The notes under the pieces are model-generated. The model searched no databases, was not told the DNA's origin, and was given only the letters and a program-made list of their open reading frames with translations. A stretch of 64,000 bases of DNA. It comes from an uncultured Staphylococcaceae bacterium (GTDB lineage Bacteria; Bacillota_I; Bacilli_A; RFN20; CAG-826). Of this stretch, positions 3,084 through 46,139 are shown one piece after another. The translations under genes and the position numbers were made by a program. The stretch is taken from positions 31,809 through 95,808 of the forward strand of contig CAYPGR010000003.1 of the NCBI GenBank assembly GCA_964410505.1. Reading direction: 5' to 3'. The first letter of the stretch is position 1; each line of letters opens with the position of its first letter.

Positions 3084-3237
3084 ATCGATAAGTTTTATTA
3101 CTTTTTTAACAGATTTATGTCTTAATGAAAAACACTTAGTTCTATCAAGCTCAACATATTACTATCACGATAAAATTAAAAAAATCCCCTCAATTTTCAC
3201 CTATTTATGGAAAAATTAGGGGGATATTTTATACTCA

Positions 3238-23874: not shown

Positions 23875-24588
23875 TTAGCTCTTATGCGGAATCCGTTTTA
23901 GTAATTCAAAAAATGGTGTTGATTGTAAATAGACTTTTCCTGGTCCAGTCACGACGGTATTAAAAAGACCTTCGCCACCAAAGAACATATTCTTGGCCCC
24001 TTTGATCATTTGAATATCCATTGTTACCGATGCGTCCATACCGGCAATATAACCCGTGGACACCACAAGCTTTTCGCCGGCTCGTAATTCTTTAACTGTT
24101 AATGAGCCATCAATTTCAATAAAAGCTTTTCCGTTTCCGGTTAGCTTTTGCATGATAAAACCTTCGCCACCAAAGAAGCCACTTCCAATCTTACGTTGAA
24201 AGTAGATCGACAGATCAACGCCCTTTTGGGCAGCGAGGAATGAACTTTTTTGGGCAATAAAGCCTTGAGTCGGGGTAATATCAATCGCCAGTATCGAACC
24301 AGGAAGGGCATTTGTAAGGGCAATCGTTCCGGCACCACCTTCTGGCGTAAATTCATTTAAGAAAAGTGATTCACCAGAGAAAAGACGGCCCATGACTTTT
24401 CCAAATCCGCCCCCTTTTGTGGTCATCACCATATTTGGGCTCATCCAGCTCATTGCCCCGGCTTCGGTAATCAGCGTTTCACCCCGATTAAGGGTAATCG
24501 TCAAGACTGGTAGTTGTCCGCCATCAATTATGTATTCCATATACTCTTGTTCCTCCTTTAGTATATTGATTGAGTTATTCTTAGGCAC
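23875..24588 (-). CDS. AIM24 / TIGR00266 (DUF124) family protein
   Basis: Characteristic Gly-rich beta-rich sequence: GGGFGKV...GSGFFGGEGFIMQKLTG...NMFFGGEGLF. Confidence 0.8.
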   Translation of the reverse strand: MPKNNSINILKEEQEYMEYIIDGGQLPVLTITLNRGETLITEAGAMSWMSPNMVMTTKGGGFGKVMGRLFSGESLFLNEFTPEGGAGTIALTNALPGSILAIDITPTQGFIAQKSSFLAAQKGVDLSIYFQRKIGSGFFGGEGFIMQKLTGNGKAFIEIDGSLTVKELRAGEKLVVSTGYIAGMDASVTMDIQMIKGAKNMFFGGEGLFNTVVTGPGKVYLQSTPFFELLKRIPHKS

Positions 24589-25759
24589 TAATCCAGAAGT
24601 CCGTGTTCATAAAACCAGTATCTGGATCAATCCGGTAAAGGGTCGATAGGGTCGTGTTACTCACATAGAGCCAGTGATTAATGACCTGCACATACATCGC
24701 ATTCGTATATAGTTCATGCAGGAGACTTAAGGTAGCGGTCATGACATGATAGCGATATAAATTTTGCCCTTTAATAAAGTATACATATTCGCCATCACTG
24801 TTCATACTATGAATATCATCACCCTTACTTATTTCGACTAATTGTTGGTCCCCATTGTTATATAGGTATAAGGCCGTTTCCGTTCCTTTTCGTAAGAGTA
24901 AAGCAAAGGTTAAAACACTTGGTGAATCATTACTCACAGCGTAGAGATGGACCGCTTTCATTTCATCATAGCCAAATGGGGCCGCAGAAAAATAAGTCAT
25001 ATTCGTTTTGCCCATAAATGAATCCGCCATCAAACTTAAGGTCGGACCATAGTTTTCAGTATAGATGACTTTGGTGTCCATGATATTGATGGTTGTGACA
25101 TCCCGCATAAACTTAGTCGTTGCTTCTTTTTTGTCATGGTTATAGGTACCGATACCTAATACTGGTTCTTCACTATAATAGATCTTCTTCATATTGAGGA
25201 ACACCGTCTTATAATAGCCATACACCGCACTGGTTTCATATTCATAAACAAGCGTTTTCTCTAACGTTGCAAGGTTGTAACGAAAAAGAAATTGATTCGT
25301 CGTCGTGACATAATATAAATCATTATCAAGTAGACAAAGATTCCTAATATAGCCGGTATCATCATTCGTAAATAAAAGCGTTGTCTGATCCGTTGATGGT
25401 TGATACACATAAACTGACCGCCCGACAGCGTAATAATGAACCTTTGCTTTATGGTTAAAAACTGCAAGGCCACGATTATTGGCGTTTCCATTTGTATTAC
25501 CGTAAGTCATGCTATTCGAGTGGAAAGCCTTCGTTTTATCTTTTAAGGTTACCACTTCACTCGTCGGGGTTGAAGTTTCAGTCGTAGTCTCACTCATCAC
25601 ACTCGTGGATGCACTTGTGTCATGGTTAGTGGTTGTTGGATAGGCGGATGTGGTTTCGCTGAGGGAGTCCTCATCGTGACTACTGGATGGATTATTCTTA
25701 CAACTTACGAGCACTAAAAGTATTAGTAGAACATAAGTTGTGAGACGAGCCGGTCTCAT
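24581..25759 (-). CDS. lipoprotein with an S/T-rich linker and a probable beta-propeller domain
   Basis: Lipobox LVSCKN. YVY and YY repeat blades. Confidence 0.45.
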   Translation of the reverse strand: MRPARLTTYVLLILLVLVSCKNNPSSSHDEDSLSETTSAYPTTTNHDTSASTSVMSETTTETSTPTSEVVTLKDKTKAFHSNSMTYGNTNGNANNRGLAVFNHKAKVHYYAVGRSVYVYQPSTDQTTLLFTNDDTGYIRNLCLLDNDLYYVTTTNQFLFRYNLATLEKTLVYEYETSAVYGYYKTVFLNMKKIYYSEEPVLGIGTYNHDKKEATTKFMRDVTTINIMDTKVIYTENYGPTLSLMADSFMGKTNMTYFSAAPFGYDEMKAVHLYAVSNDSPSVLTFALLLRKGTETALYLYNNGDQQLVEISKGDDIHSMNSDGEYVYFIKGQNLYRYHVMTATLSLLHELYTNAMYVQVINHWLYVSNTTLSTLYRIDPDTGFMNTDFWISA

Positions 25760-25957
25760 ATCCTATTCCCCCTTATATACTTAAATTATAGCACTCCAAA
25801 ATATATGGGTGTCGATCTATTAAACGGAGTTCGTAACAACATTACTCTCAAACCCTACTAAGACAAGTTTCTTTCCTCTAATGGTTAGAGATACTAAAAA
25901 GATAACATTACAAGTTCAAATAAAGCACTTGCTTACTATCCAGCCTGTAGAAGGCAC

Positions 25958-25978
25958 CTCGCTTCGGCGAGTTTTTTT
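25958..25978 (+). terminator. orphan plus-strand intrinsic terminator (UUCG tetraloop)
   Basis: CTCGC-ttcg-GCGAG followed by TTTTTTT. There is no plus-strand CDS upstream. Confidence 0.45.
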
Positions 25979-26093
25979 AACTTACTTTCATTATATCTTA
26001 GAGAGGTTTAAATAAATACATTAATTTAAAATGCATCTATTTTTGCCATATTAATCTTAAAGAATAATCAGATCATTTTTCGATAAGAGATCT

Positions 26094-27764
26094 TTATGCT
26101 TCACAAGTCGTACATACTTTTTCTTTATTGAATTGCTGAGCGGCGTTCGTACTATGTTGGTAATAGAGTGACTTCACACCATTCTCCCATGCAAAGATTA
26201 ATAGAGCATTCATTTCTTTAGCGGACATTTTCGGATTAATCATCAAGTTTAACGATTGGCTTTGATCAATAAATTGTTGTCTAATCGCGGCTTGTTGAAT
26301 CACACTATATTGATCAAGTTCACTAAAAGTTTTAAAGACTTCTTTTTCTAATTCACTTAAAAAATCAAGATGTTGAACCGAACCATCATGGTCACGAATA
26401 TCATTCCATGTATCACGGTCATTTTTCCCTTTTCGTTCAAGCACTTCTTCTAAGAAAGGGTTCCGGATTGTCACTTTAGTCTTCGCCACATCTTTCACAT
26501 AGATATTCGACCAGACTGGCTCGATACTTTGTGAGACTTGCCCAAGAATAAAGGCGGAGGAAGTGGTTGGGGCAACCGCCGTTAAAGTTGTATTTCTGCG
26601 GCCATATCCTTTTAAGATTTCCGGTTCACCAAATAGGGAAGCAAGCTTTTGGGAAGCTAGGTGTGCTTTGTTGTTAATTTCTTTAAAGATCCTAGCGTTT
26701 AGTTTAGAGGCTTCTAAACTTTCAAAGGGAATCATTTTGGATTGAAGATATGAGTGCCATCCAAGCACCCCGAGGCCTAATGCCCGGTTTGCGACCGCAA
26801 AGTCATAAGCCCGGCGCATAAAGGAAAATGCTAAATTCTTTTCTTTTTCTTTAGCGTCCCGTAATGCTTCAAGTTTATGAATAAAGTCTGTCATCACCGC
26901 ATCAAGGAAAAAGATCATCGTTTCAACCGCGTCAGTATCTTTCCATTCATCAAAGTATAAAAGATTCATCGATGATAAGTTACACACAAAAGACCACGCT
27001 TCGTGATTGGGTAAGGCAATCTCAGAACAAAGATTACTATGTGTAATTTTGAGTCCTTTATCTTTATAGACATCGACAGTCTCACGATTAACGGTGTCAG
27101 TGAAGAAAATATAGGGATAACCGATTTCTACCCGCCTTTGGATGAGTTTCGCCCAGGTGGCTCGTTTTTTCATGTCTCCGGCAATCATTTCACGCATCCA
27201 GTTATCAGAAACCGTCACCCCGTGCGTAATTTCTTGAATGGGATTCCCTTCGGTGCCAATTTGGAGGAACTCATCGATATCTTGATGGTCAATTGGTAAG
27301 TAAGGGGCGAAGCGACCGCGTCTCGTTGATCCTTGGGACACGACATCAATAATCGTTTCAAATAACTTCATAAAATGAACCGCCCCAGATGAGGTGCCGT
27401 TATTAGTGATGACACCACCGCGAGGACGAAGATCACCAAAGTAACCTGACGTGCCGCCACCAAATTTAGACATCATCCCGACTTCACTTTGGGTATAAAG
27501 AATCGAGCCCATATTGTCACTGATATGTGAACCAAAGCAACTGATGGGTAATCCCTTATTCGTGCCAAAGTTAGACCAGACCGGTGACGATAGTGAATAA
27601 TACCCTGCCTTCATGTATGAGATAAACTTATCTTTAAAACCACTGATCCCTAAAAGCTTTTCAGCATAAGTGGCAATATCTTCAATTCTTTGTTCAGGGG
27701 TCATTCCGGGCGCTAAGTAGCCCCGTGATAAAAACAACCGACTATTTTCATTTAACCAACGCAT
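26094..27764 (-). CDS. nrdA: class I ribonucleotide reductase catalytic (alpha) subunit, short form without an ATP-cone
   Basis: Thiyl-radical loop SNLCSEI (N-x-C-x-E). Second Cys motif VCNLSS. C-terminal Cys pair CTTCEA. Confidence 0.8.
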   Translation of the reverse strand: MRWLNENSRLFLSRGYLAPGMTPEQRIEDIATYAEKLLGISGFKDKFISYMKAGYYSLSSPVWSNFGTNKGLPISCFGSHISDNMGSILYTQSEVGMMSKFGGGTSGYFGDLRPRGGVITNNGTSSGAVHFMKLFETIIDVVSQGSTRRGRFAPYLPIDHQDIDEFLQIGTEGNPIQEITHGVTVSDNWMREMIAGDMKKRATWAKLIQRRVEIGYPYIFFTDTVNRETVDVYKDKGLKITHSNLCSEIALPNHEAWSFVCNLSSMNLLYFDEWKDTDAVETMIFFLDAVMTDFIHKLEALRDAKEKEKNLAFSFMRRAYDFAVANRALGLGVLGWHSYLQSKMIPFESLEASKLNARIFKEINNKAHLASQKLASLFGEPEILKGYGRRNTTLTAVAPTTSSAFILGQVSQSIEPVWSNIYVKDVAKTKVTIRNPFLEEVLERKGKNDRDTWNDIRDHDGSVQHLDFLSELEKEVFKTFSELDQYSVIQQAAIRQQFIDQSQSLNLMINPKMSAKEMNALLIFAWENGVKSLYYQHSTNAAQQFNKEKVCTTCEA

Positions 27765-27784
27765 GATTACTCATCCTCTTTTCT

Positions 27785-29053
27785 TTAAAATAAGTCGTCG
27801 CCGGTAATACTCCGGGTCCGCTTGCTGTAATTGATCGACCGTTTGACAAAGAAGTCGACATGTTTGGTGGCGACGACTTCGTCATCAAACCAGTCAGTGG
27901 CTTTAACTGCTTCCTCATCAACGGGGAAAAGCCGTTCATAACCAATACTCACTAATGAGTTATTTAGTCTATTCTTCACAAATTCTTTGACAACGCTTTT
28001 AGGCATAAAGTCAAGATCACCTTTTTCATAGATCCAGTCGATGACAACTTCTTCCGAGCGATACGCTTCTAAGCACGCTTTACGAACCGCTTCTTTCATG
28101 TCGTCATCAAACCATTCTGGATGTTCATTTCGAATAATGTTAATAAGATCAATCCCAAAAAGACCGTGGATTTGTTCTTCTTTTGACGTCGCTTCAATCG
28201 CGTTTGACATCCCTTTAAAGAGGTTTTTAAATTTGTTAAACGCCATGATAATTAAAAACTGGGAAAATAATGAGACATGTTCGATAAAAAGGGAGAATAA
28301 CAGCACCGAAAGTGTAAAATCACGTTCACTGCTTGATTTTGCTAGATGGGTGGACTTCGTTAAGTAATCGACCCGCTGCATTAGTTCGGGAATATCTTTA
28401 AGTTTTAAAAATTCATCATTGAGACCGAGAATTTCTAAAAGGTGGGAATAGGCATCATGATGACGGACTTCACTTTCCGCGAAAGTGTAACCAACCGAAC
28501 CAATTTCTGGTTTTGGCATCTTGTGATAGAGGTCACCCCAGAATGTTTTAACTGCAACTTCCACTTGGGCAATCGCAAGCATCGCATTTTTTATAACACT
28601 TCGTTCGCCTTCGCTGACATTAACCATAAAATCTTGAATATCTGATGTATAGTTAAATTCCGTATGGAGCCAATAAGAATGTTGAATGGATTCTTTATAT
28701 TTAGCAAGTTCAGGATATTCATAAGGTTTTAGATTTAAACGAAATTTAAAAATATCGGGACGCCGGGCTTGGTTTCTTTTTTCGCGGTAGATAATAAACG
28801 CCTTGGCAGTCTTTTTATATGTTGATTCAAGTAGGACTGTTTCTACATAATCTTGAACCTTTTCAACCGTTAAAGTTTCGTAATCATTATTCGTCACGAT
28901 TAAATCTAATACGCGGGCAGTTAAGAGTTCGGTTTCTTCTAACGAAAACTCTCCTGTCGCCATTCGCGCTTTATTGAGGGCAGTAAATATCTTATGAGAA
29001 CGGAAAGGTTCAGTGGATCCATTGCGTTTCACAATGAGGGTTGGTAGTTTCAT
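27785..29053 (-). CDS. nrdB: ribonucleotide reductase radical-generating (beta) subunit with an N-terminal ATP-cone domain
   Basis: N-terminal VKRNGSTEPFRSHKI ATP-cone of about 90 aa. Ferritin-like ExxH metal ligands (ESEVRHH, EEQIHG). Confidence 0.75.
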   Translation of the reverse strand: MKLPTLIVKRNGSTEPFRSHKIFTALNKARMATGEFSLEETELLTARVLDLIVTNNDYETLTVEKVQDYVETVLLESTYKKTAKAFIIYREKRNQARRPDIFKFRLNLKPYEYPELAKYKESIQHSYWLHTEFNYTSDIQDFMVNVSEGERSVIKNAMLAIAQVEVAVKTFWGDLYHKMPKPEIGSVGYTFAESEVRHHDAYSHLLEILGLNDEFLKLKDIPELMQRVDYLTKSTHLAKSSSERDFTLSVLLFSLFIEHVSLFSQFLIIMAFNKFKNLFKGMSNAIEATSKEEQIHGLFGIDLINIIRNEHPEWFDDDMKEAVRKACLEAYRSEEVVIDWIYEKGDLDFMPKSVVKEFVKNRLNNSLVSIGYERLFPVDEEAVKATDWFDDEVVATKHVDFFVKRSINYSKRTRSITGDDLF

Positions 29054-29357
29054 TGATATCTCCTTTTGACACTTTTATTTTTCAATAATAACACGGGTCA
29101 AATAGGGGATGTCAACTCTTAGAGCTTATAAAAAAAAGATAAATATTATCGGTCGAATTGGTAGTTTTTTAGGGCAAAAAAAGGCTGGTTTAGAGACCCC
29201 GTATCACATTACTAAATTGGTACTAATGATATAGCGGCCACTAGCCTTCAATTAAAAGACATATGAAACTCGTTAGAAATTATGGCTTCAAGATTTAAGT
29301 CTATAGCCGAAAAAGTAAATGTGTTGTTTTCTTATTCTATTTTTTCTAAACAAAGGA

Positions 29358-31223
29358 TTAGTTAAATCTCATCATTAATCTTTCTTTTATATAATCGTTT
29401 AGTGCTTTATCTTCACAAAAAATGAAACAACCTTTTTGACCTCGTGATAACAATGTTTTATATGTATTACGAATTATTCGATCAGCTAGTTCATAGTTTT
29501 TTGAAGACTTAATTCCTTTGAGGCTTGCGTCCGACTTAGCTCGCATTTTATAATCTGTGATAACGCGACCTTCTTCAAACCTCATATCTTTTCCGATGAT
29601 AATCCCGACATAGTCAAACTCTAAACCTTGTGCTGTGTGAATGCACCCCACTTCATCAAATGAATCTTCGTCAATCGCCCAAGTGCTTGTGGAAGAAAAG
29701 TTCCATTTAGCTTTAAATCCATTGATGAGATTAATGTCATAGAGTTGGTGAGTCGGTTTATTTTTCGTCACCCACTCATAACAATAGCCTGCAATCATCC
29801 TTGCTTTATTGTTGATATGGTTTAAGTTTCGTAATTCTTCTCTCATCAAAATAGGGTCATCAAAAACACGAATATCATAATCTAAATCGAAACCATCGTA
29901 GTTAGCAGTTTCTCTGATTCCTAGTAAATGATCTAAAAATGCAATATAACCATCACTACCATTACATCTAAATTGTGAGGTGAGTTTAAAGTCATCACCA
30001 CTAAAAACTTTACTACCAAGACGTTGCGCTTGTTTCTTAATTTCTAAAATACTGCCAAAATCCTTCGTAGTAACAATCTGATCCTCGTCGATGAAGAAGA
30101 CACTCACGCGTGCCGCATTAATGATTTCTCTAATTTGGTTTTCGCCTAAATTCATAAACATTCCCGATTTCTCGTTGAGTCGGTGCGCCTCATCTACAAC
30201 TAAGCAATCAAACTCATTTGGTTTCGAATCAACATAAGCTCCTGAGCCCTTAAACATATTTTTAACATAATTTAGCTTGTAATTTCCTTGTCGCATTTTG
30301 TTGAAATAGACATTTCGTGGAGCAGCATTCTTTGTAACATAATTAACCATCATACTCTTAAACTCTGCTAAAAGATTGATCGCAATTACACTTTTACCCG
30401 TTCCAGGTCCGCCCTCAACAATTACCGTATACTTATTATTTGTCTTAATAGCATCTTCAACTAACTTCTTAACGGTTGAAAAGACGACTTTTTGTTCATC
30501 AATCATATAAAATTCTTGATTACCAGCGATCATCGAAACAATCGCATCTTGAAGGGCTTTAGAAGGTCTAATTTTCCCATGATCAATTTGGTAAAGAACT
30601 TCACCATTGTCAGATTTTGAAACATATTTCTTAATGAACTCTCTTAATTTTAATACGTCTCTTTTTAAATACATCGGTGAAACTTCCAAAATATCTTTAT
30701 ATAGATCGTTGTCGAGTTCATGTCTGAACTCTTCTCGAAAGTTATGTAAAAAACAGCAAGGATACAATTGAATTTCACTATTTTGAACGAATTCATTATA
30801 ATTTTCGATTGTCTTGGCGTATGAATAAGCTTGATAAGAAGGATGCGTAACTGCACGCATTGAACCGGCCAGGAATGTCGTTACAATGTCTTTACGACTC
30901 GTTCTTTGAGCTTCTTCCCATTGCTTTAATTCAACAATAACAACATTACTATTATCTGACTCATCTTTTCCGGAAATAATAAAATCGACTCTTTTTGAAG
31001 TAGCAGGAATTTGATATTCAATCGCCACGCGAATGTCTGTATTAATCTCATTAAAATCTAACACATTTTTCATATGTAAAAGAGAGTTGTCCCAAGCACG
31101 AAACTCAGATTCGTTATTGTTTATGATGCTTCGTTTTCTTAGTTCGGATTTAATTAATTCGGCAATAATCCCATTATCAACATCACTACTAAACTTTGCA
31201 ATTGTTCCTGAGTATACAATCAT
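29358..31223 (-). CDS. DUF2075-like protein: an N-terminal PD-(D/E)xK nuclease fold fused to a P-loop SF1-type helicase/ATPase
   Basis: RVDFIISGKD...VVIVELKQW (D...ExK). Walker A GGPGTGKS. Walker B LVVDEAH. C-terminal HTAQGLEFDYV, an SF1 motif VI-like sequence. Confidence 0.65.
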   Translation of the reverse strand: MIVYSGTIAKFSSDVDNGIIAELIKSELRKRSIINNNESEFRAWDNSLLHMKNVLDFNEINTDIRVAIEYQIPATSKRVDFIISGKDESDNSNVVIVELKQWEEAQRTSRKDIVTTFLAGSMRAVTHPSYQAYSYAKTIENYNEFVQNSEIQLYPCCFLHNFREEFRHELDNDLYKDILEVSPMYLKRDVLKLREFIKKYVSKSDNGEVLYQIDHGKIRPSKALQDAIVSMIAGNQEFYMIDEQKVVFSTVKKLVEDAIKTNNKYTVIVEGGPGTGKSVIAINLLAEFKSMMVNYVTKNAAPRNVYFNKMRQGNYKLNYVKNMFKGSGAYVDSKPNEFDCLVVDEAHRLNEKSGMFMNLGENQIREIINAARVSVFFIDEDQIVTTKDFGSILEIKKQAQRLGSKVFSGDDFKLTSQFRCNGSDGYIAFLDHLLGIRETANYDGFDLDYDIRVFDDPILMREELRNLNHINNKARMIAGYCYEWVTKNKPTHQLYDINLINGFKAKWNFSSTSTWAIDEDSFDEVGCIHTAQGLEFDYVGIIIGKDMRFEEGRVITDYKMRAKSDASLKGIKSSKNYELADRIIRNTYKTLLSRGQKGCFIFCEDKALNDYIKERLMMRFN

Positions 31224-31336
31224 TTGGTGTTCCTCTTATTTATTCGCATATAATTGTATTCATTTTATCACCAAAAAACCATTTGGCCTAACATCAAAAT
31301 GATACCGTCCTATTGATGACTATACTTTCATTCAAT

Positions 31337-32527
31337 TTACACTAAAAATCCTATCACTGCCGCTAAAACAATAATAAACGGTGCCGGTATCTTCTTTGAA
31401 AATAACAGCAAGGCACTACCAAGCACAACAACATAATTTAGTATGTTACCCGAAAGGGCAATTGATTGATTAATACCCGTTATCACTAATAAACTGGCAG
31501 CGGTCACACTGACGCCTATTAAAAAGTATTTCACCTGTGGGATAAGGCGACTCTTCTTCCAAAGCGGAAAGATAAAAAATACAAGTAAGGTTCCGGGTAA
31601 GAATATACTTAGTCCACCGACAAGACCTGCAAGGAAACTCAAATTGGTCCCTGCAAAAGACCTCGCACTCACAAATGAAGCAAAGCTAAATAATGGTCCG
31701 GGTATTGCTTGATCAATCGCATATCCAGCTAAAAAGTCATTAAGGCTAATCAAGGATTGACTCACCACTAAATCTTGAATCATTAAAGGGACAACAATTT
31801 GACCACCCCCAATGACAGAGTAGCCGTAACGATAAAATGAGGTATATAAAATCAACCAATCACTTTCGAATAGAAGAATTAAACCTTCATTAAGTAGTGC
31901 TAAGAAAACAACAATCAAAAGAATCATCCAACGGGGCTTTTCAATCTTAAGGGATGACTTTTCGTTTAGATGCGGTAAAAGATAGATCCCGCCTCCTGTT
32001 AATAATAAAAGCGGGACAACCCACATTGAATAGGGCACTAAAAAGAAGCTAAGCGCAATCATCACACCATAAAGGATTAAGTCATATTTTCTTTTTATGA
32101 CTTTAAGCGACAACTTAATAGCGGCATAAACAATAAAGCCAACGGCGGCCGCTGGTAAATAAGTTAAGATTGGTTTCCATGTCTCATTATCGGCTATTAT
32201 CCCAAAAAAGACACCAAATAAAGTCATGATGATAATCGCGGGAAGGGCCCATACTAAAAAAGTTAGTAAGGCCAACACCGGTCCCCCAACATAGTAACCA
32301 GTAGCCGTAATCGTTTGGGTGCTACTCGGTCCAGGAACGAGGGCATATAAGCCGATCATTTCGCCAAGTTCTTCTTCACTCAGATAGTTACGTTTCGTAA
32401 CGAGAATCGACGAAAAGACACCATAATGGGCTTCAGGTCCGCCATAAGAGCCTAGTGAGCACATCATGACGTCTTTTAAGAAAGTTGACCATTTTACTTT
32501 TGTTATTTGATCCATTTTAAATACCAC
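31337..32527 (-). CDS. chrA: chromate ion transporter (CHR family, two-domain)
   Basis: CHR domain signature GGPEAHYGVF...VPGPSS. About 12 TM helices. The start is more likely the second Met (MDQITK, at 32515). Confidence 0.75.
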   Translation of the reverse strand: MVFKMDQITKVKWSTFLKDVMMCSLGSYGGPEAHYGVFSSILVTKRNYLSEEELGEMIGLYALVPGPSSTQTITATGYYVGGPVLALLTFLVWALPAIIIMTLFGVFFGIIADNETWKPILTYLPAAAVGFIVYAAIKLSLKVIKRKYDLILYGVMIALSFFLVPYSMWVVPLLLLTGGGIYLLPHLNEKSSLKIEKPRWMILLIVVFLALLNEGLILLFESDWLILYTSFYRYGYSVIGGGQIVVPLMIQDLVVSQSLISLNDFLAGYAIDQAIPGPLFSFASFVSARSFAGTNLSFLAGLVGGLSIFLPGTLLVFFIFPLWKKSRLIPQVKYFLIGVSVTAASLLVITGINQSIALSGNILNYVVVLGSALLLFSKKIPAPFIIVLAAVIGFLV

Positions 32528-32594
32528 TATCTAAAAGATAGCGGATATCCACGCCTTCAGTGATCAAAATGCATTATCGAAGGTAAGACAAGGG

Positions 32595-35393: not shown

Positions 35394-36266
35394 TTATTCA
35401 ATTTCTTCGTAATAATATGAAGTATCAACGCCTTTTAAAAATAGTTCTCTATTGTCAATCTCATCAGTCAAAGCGTTTTTAAGTATTCTTTTAATGTCCT
35501 CATCACTATTTGGACTAAGAGTCATCGCATCTAAATATTCTTTTTTCTCAATTTTTGACCAATCAACACAAACGCTCAATTCTTTCTTAAAGATTAAATC
35601 GACCCAAATACGTGTTGCCCGACCATTACCTTCCATGAAAGGGTGTGCAACATTCATTTCAATATATTTATTAACAATTTCATCAAATGTTGATTGCGGC
35701 ATTTTTTCAATTTCTCCTAAAATTTGAGGTAGAAAATCACCATTTGCAAAAACAAAACCACCTTTAGAAATCGTTTTGGTCCTTATCTTTCCAGCGAATG
35801 GGTATAGACCTTCAAATAGAAACGCATGTATTTTTAGGAGGCTGATTGTTTTCCCAATTTCATCATCTTGAATAAGATTTGATTTGAACACTTCATAGGC
35901 TTTTCTTTTGCTTTGCTCATCAAGGGGATCTAACATTCCGGTTAGCCAATTTTGAACAGCTAATTTATGTTTGGATGGCATGATTGTTACAAATAGACGC
36001 ACACCTTCTTCATTCATAACATCCGATAGGTATTTCTTGTTATCAGCAGCATATAATTTCAGTTGTCCACAAAATGAAGTCAACTCAGGATGTCTCATTT
36101 TAAACATGTTCCAATATCTTCTAGCATCACTAGAATCTAAAAGCACTTTTGTTAAATCAACAGCGGAGTACCACCATTGAGATTTGTCATGATCCCAAAC
36201 AGCTCTAACTGGTTGATTATTAAAATAGCGAATGGAATGTTTTATCATAATTAGATGATATAACAA
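35394..36266 (-). CDS. Fic-family protein (AMPylase fold) with an N-terminal Bro-N-like domain
   Basis: Fic motif HPFMEGNGRATR. N-terminus IRYFNNQPVRAVWDHDKSQWWYSAVDLTKVL resembles Bro-N. The annotated start is a TTG; an ATG lies 18 nt downstream. Confidence 0.7.
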   Translation of the reverse strand: MLYHLIMIKHSIRYFNNQPVRAVWDHDKSQWWYSAVDLTKVLLDSSDARRYWNMFKMRHPELTSFCGQLKLYAADNKKYLSDVMNEEGVRLFVTIMPSKHKLAVQNWLTGMLDPLDEQSKRKAYEVFKSNLIQDDEIGKTISLLKIHAFLFEGLYPFAGKIRTKTISKGGFVFANGDFLPQILGEIEKMPQSTFDEIVNKYIEMNVAHPFMEGNGRATRIWVDLIFKKELSVCVDWSKIEKKEYLDAMTLSPNSDEDIKRILKNALTDEIDNRELFLKGVDTSYYYEEIE

Positions 36267-36300
36267 ACATTTTCAGTTGTCCACAAAATGTTGACAACTC

Positions 36301-36336
36301 AAATAAAAAAACAGGCCGATTGAATCAAGCCTGTTT
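36301..36336 (-). terminator. minus-strand intrinsic terminator upstream of fic
   Basis: AACAGGC-12 nt loop-GCCTGTT with TTTTTTTATTT on the minus strand. Confidence 0.45.
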
Positions 36337-36892
36337 AATCTAATGGAATTGTGTGACAGAAACGATTCAAAATCTAATTTGCGTTATTGAGAGTGATTGT
36401 GCTCCTCCCCTGGTCAACCTCCAATGTTTACAGGGGAACAATGTTGATTATGATGGCTATGACTATAGAAAATCGTTCTAGAGTCTAAAAAAATCCTCAA
36501 AAAAAGAAAAAAGTGTCCAAATAAAAAAAGGACTGATATTTATATATCAATCCAATCTCTCATTTTTGGAACCACACGTTTAGTTTGATACTTTGAATAC
36601 CCTAATAATTAACGAGTGAATACCTCTAGAACTATGATTCTTTTTTGACGCTATTTGACATAAGTAACGAATTTACTTTAAGGTGAACTGATACCAAAAA
36701 CCTGTACTTTAACTTCCTTGTAATTACTACATGGTTTATAGATAAATCACTCTATACTCATAAATCCTTTAGCTGTAAATGCCATCATATAAATGTAGGA
36801 AATTGACGGTCGAAAATGTAGGTTTCTTACGGGTATGCTTTTCTTTTTGATAAACTTTTTCTAACTCACGATTAGAAAGGTTTAGAAATTAA

Positions 36893-38095
36893 ATGAGAAG
36901 AGACTTATATGAAAGGATGGTATTTATGAAAAACCATGGTGAAGAGCCAAATTATGCCGAACTAGCTCGCCGCTATAACTGCGACTATCGGACGGTAAAA
37001 CGCTACTTTGAGGGTGACGGATCACTCAAAGAGAGAAAAAAGAATCCGTCGAAACTTGATAAATTTAAAGAAATTATTGAGGATAAACTGGAACTTGGTT
37101 GTACGTATGCTTCAATCTATCACTTTATTAAAAAGCTTGGTTATGACGGTAAGTATACAATTGTTCGTGAATATGCGAATAAAGTGATAGTGATCAAAAC
37201 AAAGAAAGCAACCGTTCGTTTTGAAACGATGCCAGGATTACAAGCACAAGTTGATTGGAAAGAACACCTAACCATGATTAGTCGTGAAGGCGAGGTCTTC
37301 ACCGTGAATATCTTCCTTCTTGTTCTTGGTTATTCACGTTTAAAATTTCTAAAGCTGACCCTTGACCGTAATCAAGACACTCTAAAGGAGGCGCTGGTAG
37401 AAGGGTTCAAGTATATAGGTGGAATTCCAAAAGAGATTCTCTTCGATAATATGAAAACTGTGATTGATCAAAGTCGTTCGCACTTCATGGACGCGGTTGT
37501 TAACGAGGACTTCTACGCCTTTAGTAAGGATATGGGTTTCGAGGTAATTGCTTGTCGCGCTTATCGCCCCGAAACAAAGGGAAAAGTTGAAGCACTCGCT
37601 AAGTTTACAAGCCGCCTTCAACCTTACAACCACGACTTTGTTTCCCTTGATGAATTAAATGAAATTGTCAAAATGGTCAATGATGACATAAATCACGAAA
37701 TATCCCAAGCGACAAACGAAATCCCTCTCACTCGTCATAAAAATGAAAAAGAATACTTATTACCCTTACCACGCGCTGAACTTCTTCTTAACTTCCTTAC
37801 TAAACCACTAACAAGAATCGTTACGAAGGAGTCACTCATTACGTATCAGAATAACAAATATTCCTTGCCCCCTTATTATATCGGAAAAACTTTAACGATT
37901 AAACCATCCGCTGTTAACCTCGATATTTTTGATAACGGTGTCCTCATTATGCGCCACCCCCTCTCAAATAAAAAATACAACTACAAAAAAGAACATTATA
38001 TTGAAATTCTTAAAAGTGATGCCCTCCCCTTTAAAAATGATGATGATATTAATCGCATCGCCGAAAAGAATTTAAAACTCTACGATAATCTCTAA
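36893..38095 (+). CDS. istA: IS21-family transposase IstA
   Basis: N-terminal HTH (ELARRYNCDYRTVKRYF). DDE region typical of IstA. Confidence 0.8.
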   Translation: MRRDLYERMVFMKNHGEEPNYAELARRYNCDYRTVKRYFEGDGSLKERKKNPSKLDKFKEIIEDKLELGCTYASIYHFIKKLGYDGKYTIVREYANKVIVIKTKKATVRFETMPGLQAQVDWKEHLTMISREGEVFTVNIFLLVLGYSRLKFLKLTLDRNQDTLKEALVEGFKYIGGIPKEILFDNMKTVIDQSRSHFMDAVVNEDFYAFSKDMGFEVIACRAYRPETKGKVEALAKFTSRLQPYNHDFVSLDELNEIVKMVNDDINHEISQATNEIPLTRHKNEKEYLLPLPRAELLLNFLTKPLTRIVTKESLITYQNNKYSLPPYYIGKTLTIKPSAVNLDIFDNGVLIMRHPLSNKKYNYKKEHYIEILKSDALPFKNDDDINRIAEKNLKLYDNL

Positions 38096-38112
38096 AAGGA
38101 AAGAACACCAAA

Positions 38113-38868
38113 ATGTCCCATTATAATCAACTTATTAATAATTTAGATAACCTTAAACTCTTGAAAATGCGCGAACTCCTTCCCGCTTATCTTGATGATG
38201 CTATTATTAAAAACAAATCATTTGTTGATATTTTTAAAGAACTAACCGATCAAGAAGTTGCTTTCCGCGAAGAACGCGCACGCCTTATTAATCTTACTAT
38301 TTCGCATTTCCCCTATCACAAACGTCTCGATGATTTTGATTTTGGCTACCAACCGTCCATTAATAAAACCCAGATTCTCGATCTTGCTTCGCTTCGCTTT
38401 GTTGAACAGGTTGAAAATATCCTCCTTATCGGCAACTCCGGTGTCGGCAAAACGCACCTTGCTACCGCGCTTGGCATTGAAGCTTCCAGTAAACGCGTCT
38501 CGACCTATTTTATCCACTTTAATACACTCATGCAAAAGTTTAAAGTCGCCGCGAGTGAAGGTACCGTCGACAAAGTTGTTAAACATTATCTAAAATACAA
38601 ACTGCTTATCGTCGACGAAGTTGGCTATCTTCCTGTTGATAAAGATGCCGCGAATGGTTTCTTTCAGCTTGTCGCCGCTCGCTATGAAAGACGACCGCTA
38701 ATTATTACATCAAATTTACCACTTTCTAAATGGGGCGATGTCTTTGGTGATTATACAATCGCTAACGCTATTATTGATCGCCTTGTTCATCATTCTCACA
38801 TTATCAAAATAACCGGGCAATCCTACCGCATCAAAGGTAAACTCCAATTTGAAAATGACGAGGACTAG
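38113..38868 (+). CDS. istB: IS21-family helper ATPase IstB
   Basis: Walker A GNSGVGKTHLA and Walker B LLIVDEVGY. 17-nt spacing after istA. Confidence 0.85.
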   Translation: MSHYNQLINNLDNLKLLKMRELLPAYLDDAIIKNKSFVDIFKELTDQEVAFREERARLINLTISHFPYHKRLDDFDFGYQPSINKTQILDLASLRFVEQVENILLIGNSGVGKTHLATALGIEASSKRVSTYFIHFNTLMQKFKVAASEGTVDKVVKHYLKYKLLIVDEVGYLPVDKDAANGFFQLVAARYERRPLIITSNLPLSKWGDVFGDYTIANAIIDRLVHHSHIIKITGQSYRIKGKLQFENDED

Positions 38869-39088
38869 TCCTCGTCATTTACCTACATTTTCAACCGCTA
38901 TAAACCAACATAAATTTCTTGACAATTACAAATACGCACAGTTGTATAGACCGTTGGAATGAGCCCCATTAGCAATAAGGCAAGTAGGAGGCGGTAATTT
39001 ATTTTTTTAATTGATTTAGATATATTGCGCATCATTAATCTTTATTTTAGCAATGTATTTAAAGGAAAAATAGATATTTTTTTTATAG

Positions 39089-40084
39089 TTATTCTTGATA
39101 TCCCAGTTTTATTAATAACCCACCAATTAATGGACAGATGTTATTTGAGTTAGTTAACAAACTATTAATACCCAATAAGGAACATATTTTATTTGCTCTG
39201 CGTTTATTAGTATCTATGTAGCAGGTGGATACTCTATCTACATGCAGGGTTATTTTCCACTTGTTATCTGTTGTTTGTTCCTCTTTAAACATAATTTGCT
39301 GTACTAGTTCATGGATTTTCAATTTATATAATATTTCTTTTCCATTATTCTCATTTAAGCCAATAAGAAAATCTTTAATGGCGATTTCTTCTTTATTCTC
39401 TATTATTTTCTCATGGGCTAGGCTAGCGGCTTGTAAGAGTGCATCTACTTTAGTATCAGAAATTCCCTCTATCTCATAATTGCCAAACTTTATTGTTGCC
39501 CTATAAAAACCGTTGCCCTTGTTCTCGAGGAGCTTAAAAGAATAGGTTAACTTATTATGTTTTTTTACTTTGCACCATCTTTTAACATATAAAAAAGAGG
39601 CAAACCCTTTGTAATTAATTTGTGTTCTATGAAACAACAAATTATTCACTAAATCGTAAAGCTTAATTTGATTAAAATTAGAATCAATAGCGATGGAGCC
39701 TACAACGCTCTCGAGTAAATCTCCTCTATAAGATCTTTGGATTTGTTCATTAGGGCTTAATCTAATATAGTGTTCGAACCCCAACTTATGTATGATAGAA
39801 GCGAGATTTTCATTCTCGACAATTAGTGATTTAAGAAATGTCAATTCTCCTGGATTAAATACGCTTTTTAGACCTTGACTATCATTTGACATTATTTGAT
39901 CAAATAGAATTTTTGTAACGTGATATTCGATGACTCTATCACCAATAAATTCTAGTACTTCAGAATTAAGCTCTTTTGATTCATTTGAAAATGAACTTCT
40001 CGTAAATGCTTGTCTCAAAAGCGCTTTATTTTTGAATTCGTAATCTAATTCTTTTTCAATTTGAATAATATCTTTTTCATCCAC
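39089..40084 (-). CDS. RNase III-family protein with two C-terminal dsRBD-like modules
   Basis: RNase III signature ALLRQAFTRSS...EVLEFIGDRV. Second catalytic segment GDLLESVVGSIAID. dsRBD-like segments GNGFYRATIKFGNYEIEGISDTKVDALLQAASLA and NKWKITLHVDRVSTCYIDTNKRRANKICSLLG. Confidence 0.55.
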   Translation of the reverse strand: MDEKDIIQIEKELDYEFKNKALLRQAFTRSSFSNESKELNSEVLEFIGDRVIEYHVTKILFDQIMSNDSQGLKSVFNPGELTFLKSLIVENENLASIIHKLGFEHYIRLSPNEQIQRSYRGDLLESVVGSIAIDSNFNQIKLYDLVNNLLFHRTQINYKGFASFLYVKRWCKVKKHNKLTYSFKLLENKGNGFYRATIKFGNYEIEGISDTKVDALLQAASLAHEKIIENKEEIAIKDFLIGLNENNGKEILYKLKIHELVQQIMFKEEQTTDNKWKITLHVDRVSTCYIDTNKRRANKICSLLGINSLLTNSNNICPLIGGLLIKLGYQE

Positions 40085-40184
40085 AATGACAAATCAATCC
40101 CCTAGAGTAAATTTATTATGATAAAACTATTTTTTAAGGCGACCTTTAAGAATCAACACTTTCGTTAATTTTAAGAACCATCAG

Positions 40185-41213
40185 TTAATTAGTAACTTCA
40201 GGTATCTCCGTTAGTCTTTTTCCATTAAATTTAAAATAAAGAGGGCCTTGATATGCTCCACTACTATTCACCTTTCCTAAACGAGTAAATAGTTCTCTTG
40301 TTAATGGCGATAAGTACCAGAGCCTACCTTCAAACATGACTTTTCGTTCATTTTCAACATAGGCAACAAAGGACTCGTTTTCAGCAAAGACAATCTCCGC
40401 CCCTTTTTTAATACCTCTTTTAAAGAAATTAAAACGCGTATTGACTTCTTCTCCATTCGTCTTATCTACCTGCTCATTGCCGCTATTTTTAATGTCTCTA
40501 GCAGCGCCAGATACAGAAACCTCAGTAATATCTTCAATGATTTTGACAAATTTAGATAATTTAATACCTTTTCCTATTTCAACATTCAAAAAATCTTTAC
40601 CTGTGGCTTCGAAGGCGAGATTTTTAATAGAATAATTTTTTAAATCATCTCCATACCGGATGCCAAACATATGCAGCATAGTCATTTGATAGCCATCAGG
40701 AGCCTCATTGTACATTTTTTTTAAAATTTCCAAGTATTCATTATAGGTCAAATGACCATTTCCTTTTGGGAGGTCTTGGAATAGAAAATTTTGTATTATT
40801 TTCTTGTTTTCTGGCCAGGCTTTAATATCCGTGAGTTGTATACTTTCAGAGTCAAAATCGAAAAATAAAAATGGGAGATTGTCTTTAGAAATCTTGAGTA
40901 AATTGTCAATATTCTTTTTTGTTTTTCGTTTGTTTTCATGGAATTTATTTGATTGCACGCTGGACATTTTCAGCAAAGTATTAAAATCGTTTGTATTTTC
41001 AATGCTAAAGTTGGAATCAAGAAAATGATTAATCGTTTCAAAAATAGCAATGTCATATATCCTATTTGATTTACTCTCCCTGATATATTTTTTGATAATT
41101 TGAGCAACTATATCATCATATGTAATTTTGACAGAATATGGATCCATCCTTTCGTCTATCAGGTCAATCAATGCACTAAAGACGTTTCTTTGGAGCGTAT
41201 TTGCGGTTTGCAT
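40185..41213 (-). CDS. hypothetical protein (342 aa), co-operonic partner of the SMC-like ATPase
   Basis: ORF. 1-nt gap to the upstream 119-aa gene. Confidence 0.4.
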   Translation of the reverse strand: MQTANTLQRNVFSALIDLIDERMDPYSVKITYDDIVAQIIKKYIRESKSNRIYDIAIFETINHFLDSNFSIENTNDFNTLLKMSSVQSNKFHENKRKTKKNIDNLLKISKDNLPFLFFDFDSESIQLTDIKAWPENKKIIQNFLFQDLPKGNGHLTYNEYLEILKKMYNEAPDGYQMTMLHMFGIRYGDDLKNYSIKNLAFEATGKDFLNVEIGKGIKLSKFVKIIEDITEVSVSGAARDIKNSGNEQVDKTNGEEVNTRFNFFKRGIKKGAEIVFAENESFVAYVENERKVMFEGRLWYLSPLTRELFTRLGKVNSSGAYQGPLYFKFNGKRLTEIPEVTN

Positions 41214-41214
41214 A

Positions 41215-41574
41215 TTAAATTATATCCACTATGGTCCAATCTTTATTATTATTGATGATATCCAGTATCTTATCTAAACCTATACTTATTACTGCTCTAA
41301 GTGCATAATCTTCATCTTTTACGTCATCATGATACAACCTAATTAACGTCCTAAAAAATTTGTCACCATCAAAATCTTCCATATGCCATTTGTTGTTTTT
41401 AAAACTGCCTTTGTATTCGTCTAGTGGCTTGTACTGGCTTAAATCAACCCTAGACAAGGCGTAACTAGCTGCAAATTTCGCTGTCGTCTTATCGTCATCA
41501 AAATATCCTTTTTCTTTAAGTTTGGCAATGCATTCATCATTGTCAACTGAAATGTTAATATCTGCTAGTGGCAT
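41215..41574 (-). CDS. small hypothetical protein (119 aa), co-operonic partner of the SMC-like ATPase
   Basis: ORF. 1-nt gaps on both sides. Confidence 0.4.
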   Translation of the reverse strand: MPLADINISVDNDECIAKLKEKGYFDDDKTTAKFAASYALSRVDLSQYKPLDEYKGSFKNNKWHMEDFDGDKFFRTLIRLYHDDVKDEDYALRAVISIGLDKILDIINNNKDWTIVDII

Positions 41575-41575
41575 A

Positions 41576-46132: not shown

Positions 46133-46139
46133 TTTCGTC

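What the first reader, a model, noticed from the sequence alone, without database searches (positions are those of the whole stretch)
29358..31223. Stand-alone PD-(D/E)xK nuclease / SF1 helicase (DUF2075-type) wedged between the nrd operon and chrA
The N-terminus has a restriction-endonuclease-like D...ExK core (RVDFIISGKD...VVIVELKQW). The C-terminal two-thirds is a P-loop SF1 helicase (GGPGTGKS, LVVDEAH, HTAQGLEFDYVGII). Single-gene nuclease-helicases of this family recur in defence islands. Here it is flanked by roughly 300-bp and 110-bp AT-rich gaps, and neither neighbour is functionally related.
Basis: partly seen in the sequence, partly recalled or inferred. Interest (0 to 1): 0.5.

Follow-up and report, generated by a model that had tools for sequence, protein, structure and literature searches.

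The report
Stand-alone nuclease-helicase phage-defence gene
This is an intact single gene that fuses a DNA-cutting domain to a DNA-unwinding motor; it is a distant relative of the proven "Nhi-like" anti-phage proteins, sits in a variable stretch of an Acholeplasma-like genome, and is a fairly ordinary new example of a known kind of bacterial immune gene.

Summary
Window 29358-31223 (-) is an intact 621-aa ORF. Residues 265-605 match Pfam PF09848 (DUF2075 / Schlafen group-3 helicase, E=8e-94). Residues 1-255 carry a conserved E69...D80...E98-x-K100...Q131xxxY135 nuclease signature on an alpha-beta-beta-beta-alpha-beta core.

The protein aligns over its full length with the experimentally validated Nhi-like defence protein of Bacillus cereus (PADLOC PDC-S41), at about 21% identity (hhalign probability 94.8%). 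It therefore belongs to a separate subfamily.

It is an accessory gene, not a housekeeping one:
- Homologs at 66-82% identity lie in unrelated contexts, mostly defence islands or mobile elements.
- None of 80 related nrdB loci carries it.
- The closest relative found (L174) lacks the whole chrA-DUF2075-nrdBA block.
- GC3 is 0.29, against 0.37-0.43 in flanking genes.
- dN/dS is about 0.04.

One result was unexpected. In 33 of 45 well-flanked homologous loci the gene forms an operon with a ~105-aa MazG-like NTP pyrophosphohydrolase. The held literature did not mention this pairing. The window copy, and apparently its 87%-identical relative, lack that partner.

Best reading: a solo Nhi-like nuclease-helicase that degrades invading DNA. 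It is a new member of a known kind and of moderate interest.

The parts
29358..31223 (-). Complete CDS, 621 aa: nuclease-helicase (DUF2075/SLFN-g3 type)
   Evidence: ORF list. PF09848 E=8e-94. An identical protein is on record as P0001, 'DUF2075 domain-containing protein [Bacilli bacterium]'. AF2 model pLDDT 81, pTM 0.81.
30459..31223 (-). N-terminal domain (aa 1-255): PD-(D/E)xK, RecB/NERD-like nuclease core. Catalytic candidates are E69, D80, E98, K100 and Q131xxxY135. A beta-hairpin insert lies at about aa 105-126 and a helical linker at about aa 164-255.
29358..30458 (-). SF1B-type helicase/ATPase (aa 256-621). Motifs: Walker A GGPGTGKS 271-278, motif II DEAH 344-347, IDEDQ 378-382, SQFRC 416-420, HTAQGLEFD 529-537, TLLSRGQKG 590-598.
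   Evidence: PF09848 covers aa 265-605. These motifs are invariant among 30 homologs. Foldseek PDB hits: DSH9 8jx6 at 1.4e-11, SLFN11 7zel, RecD2 3gpl, Dna2 5ean, nsp13, Upf1, Dda.
31261..31291 (-). Promoter-like element TTAGGCCAAAT-N9-TGATAAAAT (extended -10), 38 nt upstream of the ATG
   Evidence: Read from the sequence. It is conserved upstream of the 87%-identical homolog in L167. It is also present in L174, where the gene is absent. The generic promoter scan did not list it because its -35 is weak, so function is inferred.
31231..31237 (-). Ribosome-binding site AAGAGGA, 7 nt before the ATG
   Evidence: Sequence. Conserved as TTAGAGGA in L167.
29175..29249 (-). Terminator-like long hairpin followed by U7, downstream of the stop codon and upstream of the nrdB promoter region
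   Evidence: The MFE fold of the gap contains this hairpin; coordinates. The gap as a whole is not unusually structured (z=-0.35), and no Rfam family matches. A terminator role is inferred.
25912..31250 (.). 5.3-kb block (DUF2075 + nrdB + nrdA) that is absent from the corresponding site of the closest relative found (L174)
   Evidence: L174 3073-3116 aligns to window 31294-31251. The next bases, L174 3119-3192, align to window 25911-25838. Gene order in L174 is ABCatp-ABC2b-ABC2a-lipo392 homolog.
31295..32594 (.). chrA segment, a second indel. It is absent in both L174 and L167, where the ABC-2 permease is followed directly by the promoter-like element.

Best explanation
The gene encodes a self-contained anti-phage/anti-plasmid nuclease-helicase of the Nhi / Nhi-like class, acquired horizontally and kept in a variable chromosomal site.

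Proposed mechanism:
1. The C-terminal SF1B (DUF2075) motor uses ATP to load on and translocate along or unwind invader DNA.
2. This delivers the N-terminal metal-dependent PD-(D/E)xK (RecB/NERD-like) nuclease, which nicks or degrades that DNA and stops replication of the invader.
3. By analogy with S. epidermidis Nhi, the full-length enzyme is probably auto-inhibited until it meets a phage-specific DNA state. Candidates are replication intermediates (as for Nhi) or modified DNA (as for B. cereus Nhi-like).
4. It is transcribed on its own, from an extended -10 promoter to a hairpin/U-tract. It works without the MazG-like partner that most of its subfamily carries.

Shown here:
- an intact ORF with this domain architecture and SF1B fold;
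- conservation of all catalytic motifs;
- full-length homology to a validated defence protein;
- accessory, patchy, island-associated distribution;
- strong purifying selection.

Inferred, not shown: enzymatic activities, polarity, trigger, auto-inhibition and the defence phenotype.
For: Architecture and motifs:
- PF09848 at E=8e-94.
- E69/D80/E98xK100/Q131xxxY135 and all SF1 motifs are conserved.

Link to validated defence proteins:
- PADLOC hits PDC-S41 (6.8e-18), AbiO (3e-14) and Nhi (1e-13).
- PDC-S41 is the model of the validated Nhi-like protein. Its 97%-identical ortholog scores 7.6e-113 full length.
- BLASTP against Nhi-like gives E=5e-11, collinear over aa 4-348.
- hhalign gives probability 94.8%, E=5e-8, 512 aligned columns over aa 38-612.
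- Nhi has biochemically shown nuclease and helicase activities, and both are needed for defence (bioRxiv 10.1101/776245).
- Nhi-like defends as a single cloned gene (10.1101/2022.05.11.491447).

Accessory status:
- 110 plasmid records carry a homolog, including archaeal ones.
- 0 of 80 nrdB loci carry it, and it is absent from the L174 site.
- GC3 is 0.29, against 0.37-0.43 in neighbours. That resembles the window's other defence genes: Fic 0.25, PbeC 0.28.
- The window also has a defence/mobile island 4 kb away: Fic/PDC-S04, IS21, PDC-S57, PbeC, PbeA, MTase.

Selection: dN/dS is 0.04 against the 87%-identical L167 copy.
Against: - No experiment exists on this subfamily.
- Identity to the validated Nhi-like protein is only about 21%. 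The PDC-S41 and Nhi HMMs each match only part of the protein.
- Most subfamily members are paired with a MazG-like gene, so a solo copy might be incomplete.
- The immediate neighbours (nrdBA, chrA, an ABC-2 transporter) are not defence genes.
- dS is near saturation (1.85), so the dN/dS value is rough.
Confidence: 0.72

Rival explanations
1. Orphaned half of a two-gene system. The subfamily normally acts with a co-transcribed MazG-like NTP pyrophosphohydrolase, and the window copy, having lost it, is non-functional or has only residual function in defence.
For: MazG-like (PF12643) lies within +-3 genes in 51 of 80 metagenomic loci and in 33 of 45 well-flanked ones. It is always on the same strand, with a median gap of 11 bp. 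It also sits immediately downstream in six of the seven closest homologs (73-82% identity) whose downstream flank was read (L001, L002, L087, L088, L096, L168/L169) and in 66%-identical L004; 72%-identical L003 has an AIPR gene there instead. No MazG-like sequence exists anywhere in the 64-kb window, and there is no remnant in the 304-bp gap.
Against: The ORF is intact with every invariant residue. dN/dS is 0.04 since the split from L167, which also seems to lack MazG: it has 70 nt downstream with no start. About a quarter of well-flanked members are solo. The validated Nhi-like protein defends as a single cloned gene and is solo in its native plasmid.
Confidence: 0.12
2. Housekeeping or stress-related DNA repair/replication nuclease-helicase (Dna2-, RecD2- or HelD-like role) of the host, unrelated to defence.
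For: The structure resembles Dna2, RecD2 and Upf1. It lies adjacent to the nucleotide-metabolism genes nrdBA. Purifying selection is strong. NCBIfam gives faint Walker-A-only hits to HelR/HelD and RecD.
Against: It is absent from the same site in the nearest relative found and from all 80 related nrdB loci. Near-identical-length homologs at 45-49% identity occur in archaea, Bacteroidota and Proteobacteria plasmids and in a cyanophage, a patchy HGT pattern. Homolog contexts are dominated by defence genes. GC3 is deviant. No NCBIfam housekeeping model comes near its cutoff.
Confidence: 0.08
3. Mobile-element cargo that serves the element rather than the host cell, for example exclusion of competing elements, or a replication or anti-defence function.
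For: One 80%-identical homolog lies inside an element with two serine recombinases, an excisionase-like HTH and a DnaD-like gene. Many homologs are on plasmids. A few are on phage records.
Against: No recombinase, repeat boundary or other element gene flanks the window copy. The IS21 is 5.7 kb away, beyond four unrelated genes. The family is rare in viral contigs: 4 remote hits in 2.9 million contigs. Exclusion of competing elements is mechanistically the same as defence.
Confidence: 0.06

Closest known systems
Nhi-like (Millman et al. 2022, Bacillus cereus FSL H8-0482 gene 2729017301; PADLOC model PDC-S41)
   Same: Same two-domain order and size (611 vs 621 aa): an N-terminal E...D...ExK...QxxxY nuclease plus a DUF2075 SF1 helicase. 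The two proteins align over their full length (hhalign probability 94.8%, 512 columns; BLASTP E=5e-11). Both occur as a single gene with no MazG neighbour.
   Different: Identity is only about 21-22%. The PDC-S41 HMM matches only the N-terminal about 285 residues at 6.8e-18, against 7.6e-113 for a true ortholog. The window subfamily has an extra beta-hairpin/HPSYQ insert (aa ~105-130) that Nhi-like lacks. It is usually operonic with a MazG-like gene. Defence is untested.
Nhi (SERP2475, Staphylococcus epidermidis RP62a; Bari et al. 2022)
   Same: PD-(D/E)xK nuclease N-terminus plus a DUF2075-overlapping SF1 helicase. It is a single-protein immunity system and spreads by HGT, often on plasmids or in defence neighbourhoods.
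   Different: The PADLOC Nhi HMM matches only aa 253-423 (E=1e-13). No similarity to the Nhi N-terminus was detected. The window protein has no C-terminal glyoxalase/bleomycin-resistance-like domain.
AbiO (Lactococcus abortive-infection protein; PF09848 is listed among Abi pfams in PMC10121019)
   Same: It shares the DUF2075 helicase core (PADLOC AbiO E=3e-14, aa 236-449).
   Different: The match is limited to the ATPase N-terminal half. The nuclease domain is not covered.
Schlafen group III C-terminal helicase (human SLFN11/SLFN14; Pfam PF09848)
   Same: Same Pfam family (E=8e-94). There are structural matches to 7zel and 9nyy.
   Different: Eukaryotic Schlafens carry an N-terminal Slfn-core RNase, not a PD-(D/E)xK domain. 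Identity is about 10%.
Dna2 / RecD2 / Dda SF1B helicases
   Same: The motor-domain fold matches (Foldseek E 1e-9 to 1e-11). Dna2 also combines a RecB-type PD-(D/E)xK nuclease N-terminal to an SF1B helicase.
   Different: No sequence-level family membership: NCBIfam recD scores 17.7 bits against a 310-bit cutoff. The protein has no Fe-S cluster motif, and its distribution is accessory.

Membership tests
Pfam PF09848 (DUF2075 / SLFN-g3 helicase) | Full-length match to the family HMM above the gathering score | tested here: met
   315.2 bits against a 24-bit cutoff; aa 265-605 cover profile positions 2-354 of 354.
SF1B helicase | Walker A, DExx, and motifs III-VI on two RecA-like domains, with fold similarity to SF1B members | tested here: met
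   The motifs are invariant in 30 homologs. Foldseek hits DSH9, RecD2, Dna2, Upf1, nsp13 and Dda at E 1e-11 to 1e-7.
SF1B helicase | 5'->3' ATP-dependent translocation or unwinding | not testable with these tools
   Needs biochemistry. Nhi itself was reported to be bipolar.
PD-(D/E)xK (RecB/NERD-like) nuclease | Conserved E / D / (D/E)xK catalytic residues on an alpha-beta-beta-beta-alpha-beta core, with QxxxY in RecB-like members | tested here: met
   E69, E98, K100 and Y135 are invariant; D80 and Q131 are >=90% conserved in 25 diverse members. The secondary-structure order fits.
PD-(D/E)xK (RecB/NERD-like) nuclease | Significant structural or HMM match to a known member | tested here: inconclusive
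Nhi-like (PADLOC PDC-S41; Millman 2022) | N-terminal nuclease plus DUF2075 architecture in one polypeptide | tested here: met
Nhi-like (PADLOC PDC-S41; Millman 2022) | Full-length, high-scoring match to the PDC-S41 HMM | tested here: not met
   Only profile positions 5-258 of 657 match, at E=6.8e-18. A 97%-identical ortholog of the validated protein scores 7.6e-113 over positions 6-632. Homology is nevertheless supported by hhalign (probability 94.8%), so this is the same superfamily but a different subfamily.
Nhi-like (PADLOC PDC-S41; Millman 2022) | Confers phage resistance; escape by loss of a phage DNA methylase | not testable with these tools
   Literature only.
Nhi (SERP2475 family) | Sequence homology over both the nuclease and helicase domains | tested here: not met
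   The PADLOC Nhi HMM matches aa 253-423 only.
Defence-island / accessory gene | Variable presence among relatives and enrichment next to known defence genes | tested here: met
DUF2075-nuclease + MazG-like operon (subfamily module seen here) | Co-oriented MazG-like gene within a few genes of the nuclease-helicase gene | tested here: not met
   No MazG-like sequence occurs in the window (tblastn). It is present in 33 of 45 well-flanked homologous loci.

The most novel reading that the evidence does not exclude
The window protein belongs to a large, untested subfamily of Nhi-like nuclease-helicases (1650 representatives at 50% identity). Its ancestral and predominant form is a two-gene operon with a ~105-aa MazG-like NTP pyrophosphohydrolase. 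Under this reading the operon is a not-yet-described defence module. The MazG-like enzyme would remove (modified) dNTPs while the nuclease-helicase destroys the (modified or replicating) invader DNA. The window copy would be a naturally occurring solo derivative that still works, which implies that the MazG-like partner is an accessory or specificity factor rather than an essential subunit.
Probability: 0.4. Interest if true: 0.6.

Novelty: new member of a known kind. Interest (0 to 1): 0.36.

Why it matters
For this window, the gene marks a variable, horizontally filled site in an Acholeplasma-like genome. It adds a probable single-protein DNA-targeting immune gene to a lineage whose defence repertoire is little studied.

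More generally, the subfamily is abundant. The homolog search saturated at more than 8000 hits, spanning bacteria and archaea. It is only weakly caught by the PADLOC models and is untested. The tight operonic link to a MazG-like pyrophosphohydrolase suggests a testable coupling between control of the nucleotide pool and nuclease-helicase immunity. A natural solo/paired contrast, like the one offered by this locus, is a convenient experimental handle.

None of this overturns current understanding. Nuclease-DUF2075 proteins are already established defence proteins.

Tried and rejected
- PDB sequence search with the whole protein found only a Walker-A match to HelD.
- A profile of 25 N-terminal domains against PDB sequences gave only spurious designed armadillo-repeat hits.
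- Rfam found nothing in 20-42 kb at gathering score, and only chance snoRNA hits in the 304-bp gap at E<=1. The gap is not unusually structured (z=-0.35), so the idea of a riboswitch or other ncRNA in the gap was dropped.
- I looked for a decayed MazG-like gene in the gap or elsewhere in the window and found none.
- I looked for flanking direct repeats or a recombinase that would define a discrete cassette. There is only one copy in the window of the GTAATGTTATCT-type repeat seen twice in L174, and no clear target-site duplication at the indel junctions.
- The generic sigma-70 and terminator scans gave counts no better than shuffles and missed the conserved extended -10 element.
- The NrdB-based scan of 80 species gave no synteny beyond nrdBA. 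It shows non-conservation but is not a strict empty-site test. The ABC-2 permease route supplied the empty site.
- Literature searches for DUF2075+MazG, PDC-S41, MazG-like+defense island+helicase, and MazG+Nhi returned nothing relevant. The library lacks most subscription journals, so absence of a report is not proven.
- Membership in Nhi proper and in AbiO was rejected because only the ATPase half matches.
Full report
OBSERVATION. An AAGAGGA ribosome-binding site lies 7 nt upstream. The quoted motifs are at aa 78-102 (RVDF...ELKQW), 271-278 (GGPGTGKS), 341-347 (LVVDEAH) and 529-542 (HTAQGLEFDYVGII). The flanking gaps are 304 bp (GC 0.316) and 113 bp (GC 0.301), in a window of GC 0.389. The neighbours are nrdB (with an N-terminal ATP-cone) and nrdA downstream, and chrA followed by a three-gene ABC-2 transporter upstream. 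An identical protein is on record from a 'Bacilli bacterium' MAG, and the closest relatives are Acholeplasma, Paracholeplasma, Peloplasma and Izemoplasma-type genomes.

WHAT THE PROTEIN IS: HELICASE PART. Residues 265-605 match Pfam PF09848 (DUF2075, now 'Schlafen group 3 helicase') end to end at E=8e-94. An AlphaFold2 model built on 30 homologs has pLDDT 81 and pTM 0.81. Its best PDB matches are SF1B helicases: DSH9, SLFN11, RecD2, Dna2, coronavirus nsp13, Upf1 and Dda. Walker A, DEAH and the later SF1 motifs are invariant among homologs.

WHAT THE PROTEIN IS: NUCLEASE PART. Residues 1-255 have no Pfam hit above threshold. They nevertheless define a large family that is always N-terminal to a DUF2075 helicase. 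An exhaustive HMMER scan of 1.84 billion cluster representatives found 1650 at E<=1e-3 and 173 at E<=1e-30.
- Conservation: across 25 diverse members, including the validated Nhi-like protein, E69, R78, E98, K100, Y135 and N161 are invariant. D80, Q131, H127-P128 and H160 are >=90% conserved. This is the classical E...D...ExK set plus the RecB-type QxxxY motif.
- Topology: the domain model (pLDDT 82) has helix 38-55, strands 65-70, 79-86 and 92-100, helix 128-142 and strand 152-159, with a hairpin insert at 105-126. That is the alpha-beta-beta-beta-alpha-beta nuclease core.
- Foldseek gave nothing significant; its top hit was the PD-(D/E)xK enzyme EndoMS at E=0.05. A profile search of PDB sequences found nothing real.
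- Weak Pfam hits recur to NERD (9 of 25 members), PDDEXK_9 and HSDR_N.
I take the nuclease assignment as well supported by motif conservation and topology, and only moderately supported by structure comparison.

RELATION TO KNOWN DEFENCE PROTEINS. PADLOC gives partial hits to PDC-S41 (6.8e-18, N-terminal about 285 aa), AbiO (3e-14) and Nhi (1e-13); the latter two cover the ATPase half only. I recovered the first 399 residues of the validated 'Nhi-like' protein (Bacillus cereus FSL H8-0482) from the Millman et al. supplement. I then found a 97%-identical full-length ortholog on a B. cereus plasmid. That ortholog scores 7.6e-113 over the whole PDC-S41 model, so PDC-S41 is the Nhi-like family.

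The window protein aligns collinearly with Nhi-like by BLASTP (E=5e-11, aa 4-348, including E-D-ExK, QxxxY, Walker A and DEAx). It also aligns by profile comparison (probability 94.8%, E=5e-8, 512 columns, aa 38-612), at about 21% identity. It is therefore a homolog with the same architecture but in a different subfamily.

Published work supplies the functional precedent:
- S. epidermidis Nhi has a PD-(D/E)xK N-terminus with exonuclease and nickase activity, is apparently auto-inhibited in the full-length protein, and has a bipolar helicase. Both activities are needed for immunity, and phage SSB modulates sensitivity (10.1101/776245).
- Nhi-like protects as a single cloned gene (10.1101/2022.05.11.491447). 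Phages escape it by losing a DNA methylase (10.1101/2022.08.27.505566).

ACCESSORY OR HOUSEKEEPING? Homologs of 66-82% identity sit in completely different places:
- Peloplasma: next to DndB-like and MazG-like genes.
- Izemoplasma B36, with MazG-like, HNH and two methylases near ThsB.
- An HNH_4-DUF2075-MazG-like trio near TIR and RelA/SpoT genes.

Full-length relatives at 43-49% identity occur on plasmids of Methanosphaera, Halalkalicoccus, Halomonas and Hymenobacter and in a Microcystis phage record. The family is almost absent from IMG/VR, with 4 remote hits. None of 80 nrdB loci from related species, 65 of them with >=3 kb upstream, has a DUF2075 or chrA homolog nearby.

The ABC-2 permease gave the decisive comparison:
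- In the closest relative found (L174; ABC ATPase 94% and permease 85% identical), the transporter is followed after 353 nt by the homolog of the window's lipoprotein-like gene at 24581-25759.
- L174 3073-3116 matches window 31294-31251, the element just upstream of the DUF2075 start. The next bases match window 25911-25838.
- So a 5.3-kb block (DUF2075-nrdB-nrdA, 25912-31250) and the chrA segment (31295-32594) are both missing there.
- A second relative (L167; DUF2075 87% aa identical) has the permease directly followed by DUF2075 without chrA.
- Two more distant relatives have an APH gene or a secreted endonuclease at this position.

The site is thus a variable spot, and the gene is an accessory gene that has persisted in one sub-lineage. 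Composition agrees: GC3 is 0.29 against 0.37-0.43 for nrdA, nrdB, chrA, the permease and the lipoprotein gene, and it is similar to the window's other defence genes (Fic 0.25, PbeC 0.28, PbeA 0.30). The gene is under strong purifying selection (dN/dS 0.04 against L167, with dS near saturation). The window also carries a defence/mobile island 4-16 kb away: Fic (PDC-S04, 1e-117), IS21 istAB, an HTH_73 protein (PDC-S57), PbeC (4e-79), PbeA (3.5e-183) and an N6/N4 methylase.

UNEXPECTED FAMILY FEATURE. In 80 metagenomic loci with full-length homologs (50-79% identity), a ~105-aa MazG-like NTP pyrophosphohydrolase (PF12643) lies within three genes in 51 loci. In the 45 loci with >=1.5 kb on both sides the count is 33. 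It is always on the same strand, the median intergenic distance is 11 bp, and the genes often overlap. Pfam scans of all +-1 and +-2 neighbours confirm 37 and 13 MazG-like genes respectively and no other recurrent family; the rest are scattered defence-type genes such as Abi_2, Mrr_cat, nSTAND3, Csm6-HEPN, HNH and methylases. The same triad, MazG-like, HNH and DUF2075, occurs on a B. thuringiensis plasmid with a 24%-identical relative.

The MazG-like sequences keep the EExxE...EExxD acidic motifs (read by eye). The window has no MazG-like gene, nor a remnant of one, and L167 has no room for one in its 70 downstream bases. The papers I could search do not mention a DUF2075-MazG link. A 2026 preprint infers MazG-like domains as NTP-targeting effectors in other conflict systems.

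EXPRESSION SIGNALS. A TTAGGyCAAAT-N9-TGATAAAAT element (extended -10) lies 38 nt upstream of the ATG. It is conserved in L167, and also in L174 where the gene is missing. A long hairpin followed by U7 (29249-29175) lies between the stop codon and the nrdB promoter region. Both are consensus-level inferences; the generic scans were uninformative.

MECHANISM (best estimate, confidence 0.72). A single-polypeptide, ATP-driven SF1B motor carries a RecB/NERD-like metal-dependent nuclease onto invader DNA and nicks or degrades it. It is probably held inactive until it meets a phage-specific DNA state: replication intermediates as for Nhi, or modified DNA as for Nhi-like. The association of the subfamily with MazG-like, HNH and methylase genes makes a modified-DNA trigger attractive, but this is untested. 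Architecture, motif conservation, homology, accessory distribution and selection are shown here. Activities, trigger and phenotype are inferred.

RIVALS.
- An orphaned, non-functional half of a MazG-paired system (0.12). This is countered by intactness, purifying selection, frequent natural solos and the single-gene activity of Nhi-like.
- A housekeeping repair helicase-nuclease (0.08). This is countered by the empty site, the patchy HGT-like distribution and defence-island contexts.
- Cargo serving a mobile element (0.06). No element features flank this copy.

NOVELTY AND VERDICT. The gene is a new, divergent member of a known kind: Nhi/Nhi-like nuclease-DUF2075 helicase defence proteins. It is not a member of the Nhi or PDC-S41 families as defined by their HMMs. 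Interest is moderate (0.36). The most novel element is the subfamily-wide operon with a MazG-like pyrophosphohydrolase, which this locus lacks.

Noticed in passing
L087-L166 (e.g. L087:7868-8185, L168:9889-10206, L004:9870-10199); absent from the window: A ~105-aa MazG-like NTP pyrophosphohydrolase (PF12643) is co-oriented and usually within 0-70 bp of the nuclease-helicase gene in 33 of 45 well-flanked homologous loci. The searchable papers do not mention this pairing.
   Followed up: yes
P0124, P0128, P0240 (about 795-812 aa family members): Some family members carry a ~170-aa C-terminal extension that, by eye, has an S24/LexA-like peptidase motif (G-x-S-M-x-P...DGD). This hints at RecA/ssDNA-triggered self-cleavage as an activation switch. 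I did not run it through Pfam.
   Followed up: no
P0170 (1068 aa): One family member has a second, C-terminal P-loop helicase module (GEGGTGKS... RecD/Pif1-like by eye) fused after the DUF2075 helicase.
   Followed up: no
window 35394-47006: A defence/mobile island lies here: Fic protein (PADLOC PDC-S04, 1e-117), IS21 istA/istB (36893-38868), an RNase III-like gene (39089-40084), an HTH_73 protein (PDC-S57), PbeC-like (41576-43600, 4e-79), PbeA-like (43775-46375, 3.5e-183) and an N6/N4 DNA methylase (46140-47006).
   Followed up: partly
window 43775-46375 and 46140-47006: The mechanically called PbeA-like and methylase ORFs overlap by 236 nt on the same strand. The PbeA-like start (a GTG) is probably further downstream than listed.
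   Followed up: no
window 26094-29053; L007-L086: The nrdBA operon (NrdB with a fused N-terminal ATP-cone) is itself part of the block missing in relative L174. Its closest homologs (73-82% identity) are spread over Acholeplasma, Erysipelothrix and Paenibacillus, and homologs at about 60% identity occur in CPR bacteria and Flavobacteriia. This suggests the operon is horizontally mobile.
   Followed up: partly
window 25893-25911 (-); L174 about 3119-3150 and 3195-3235: A ~30-nt motif (GAGTAATGTTATCT(A/T)TTTAGT.TCT.TAAC) occurs twice upstream of the lipoprotein-like gene in L174. The window has one full copy plus a partial copy. It abuts the indel junction, so it may be a regulator binding site or a recombination substrate.
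   Followed up: partly
L121 and L132 (same human-gut contig ORKV01000022.1, about 57 kb apart): Two full-length copies of the family lie on one contig. In addition, 6 loci have a second DUF2075 gene within two genes of the first (Pfam counts). Paralogous pairs therefore exist.
   Followed up: no
window 24581-25759: A 392-aa protein with a lipoprotein-like signal sequence, a Ser/Thr-rich linker and no Pfam domain is conserved at 64% identity in L174. It is the ancestral right-hand neighbour of the ABC-2 transporter.
   Followed up: no
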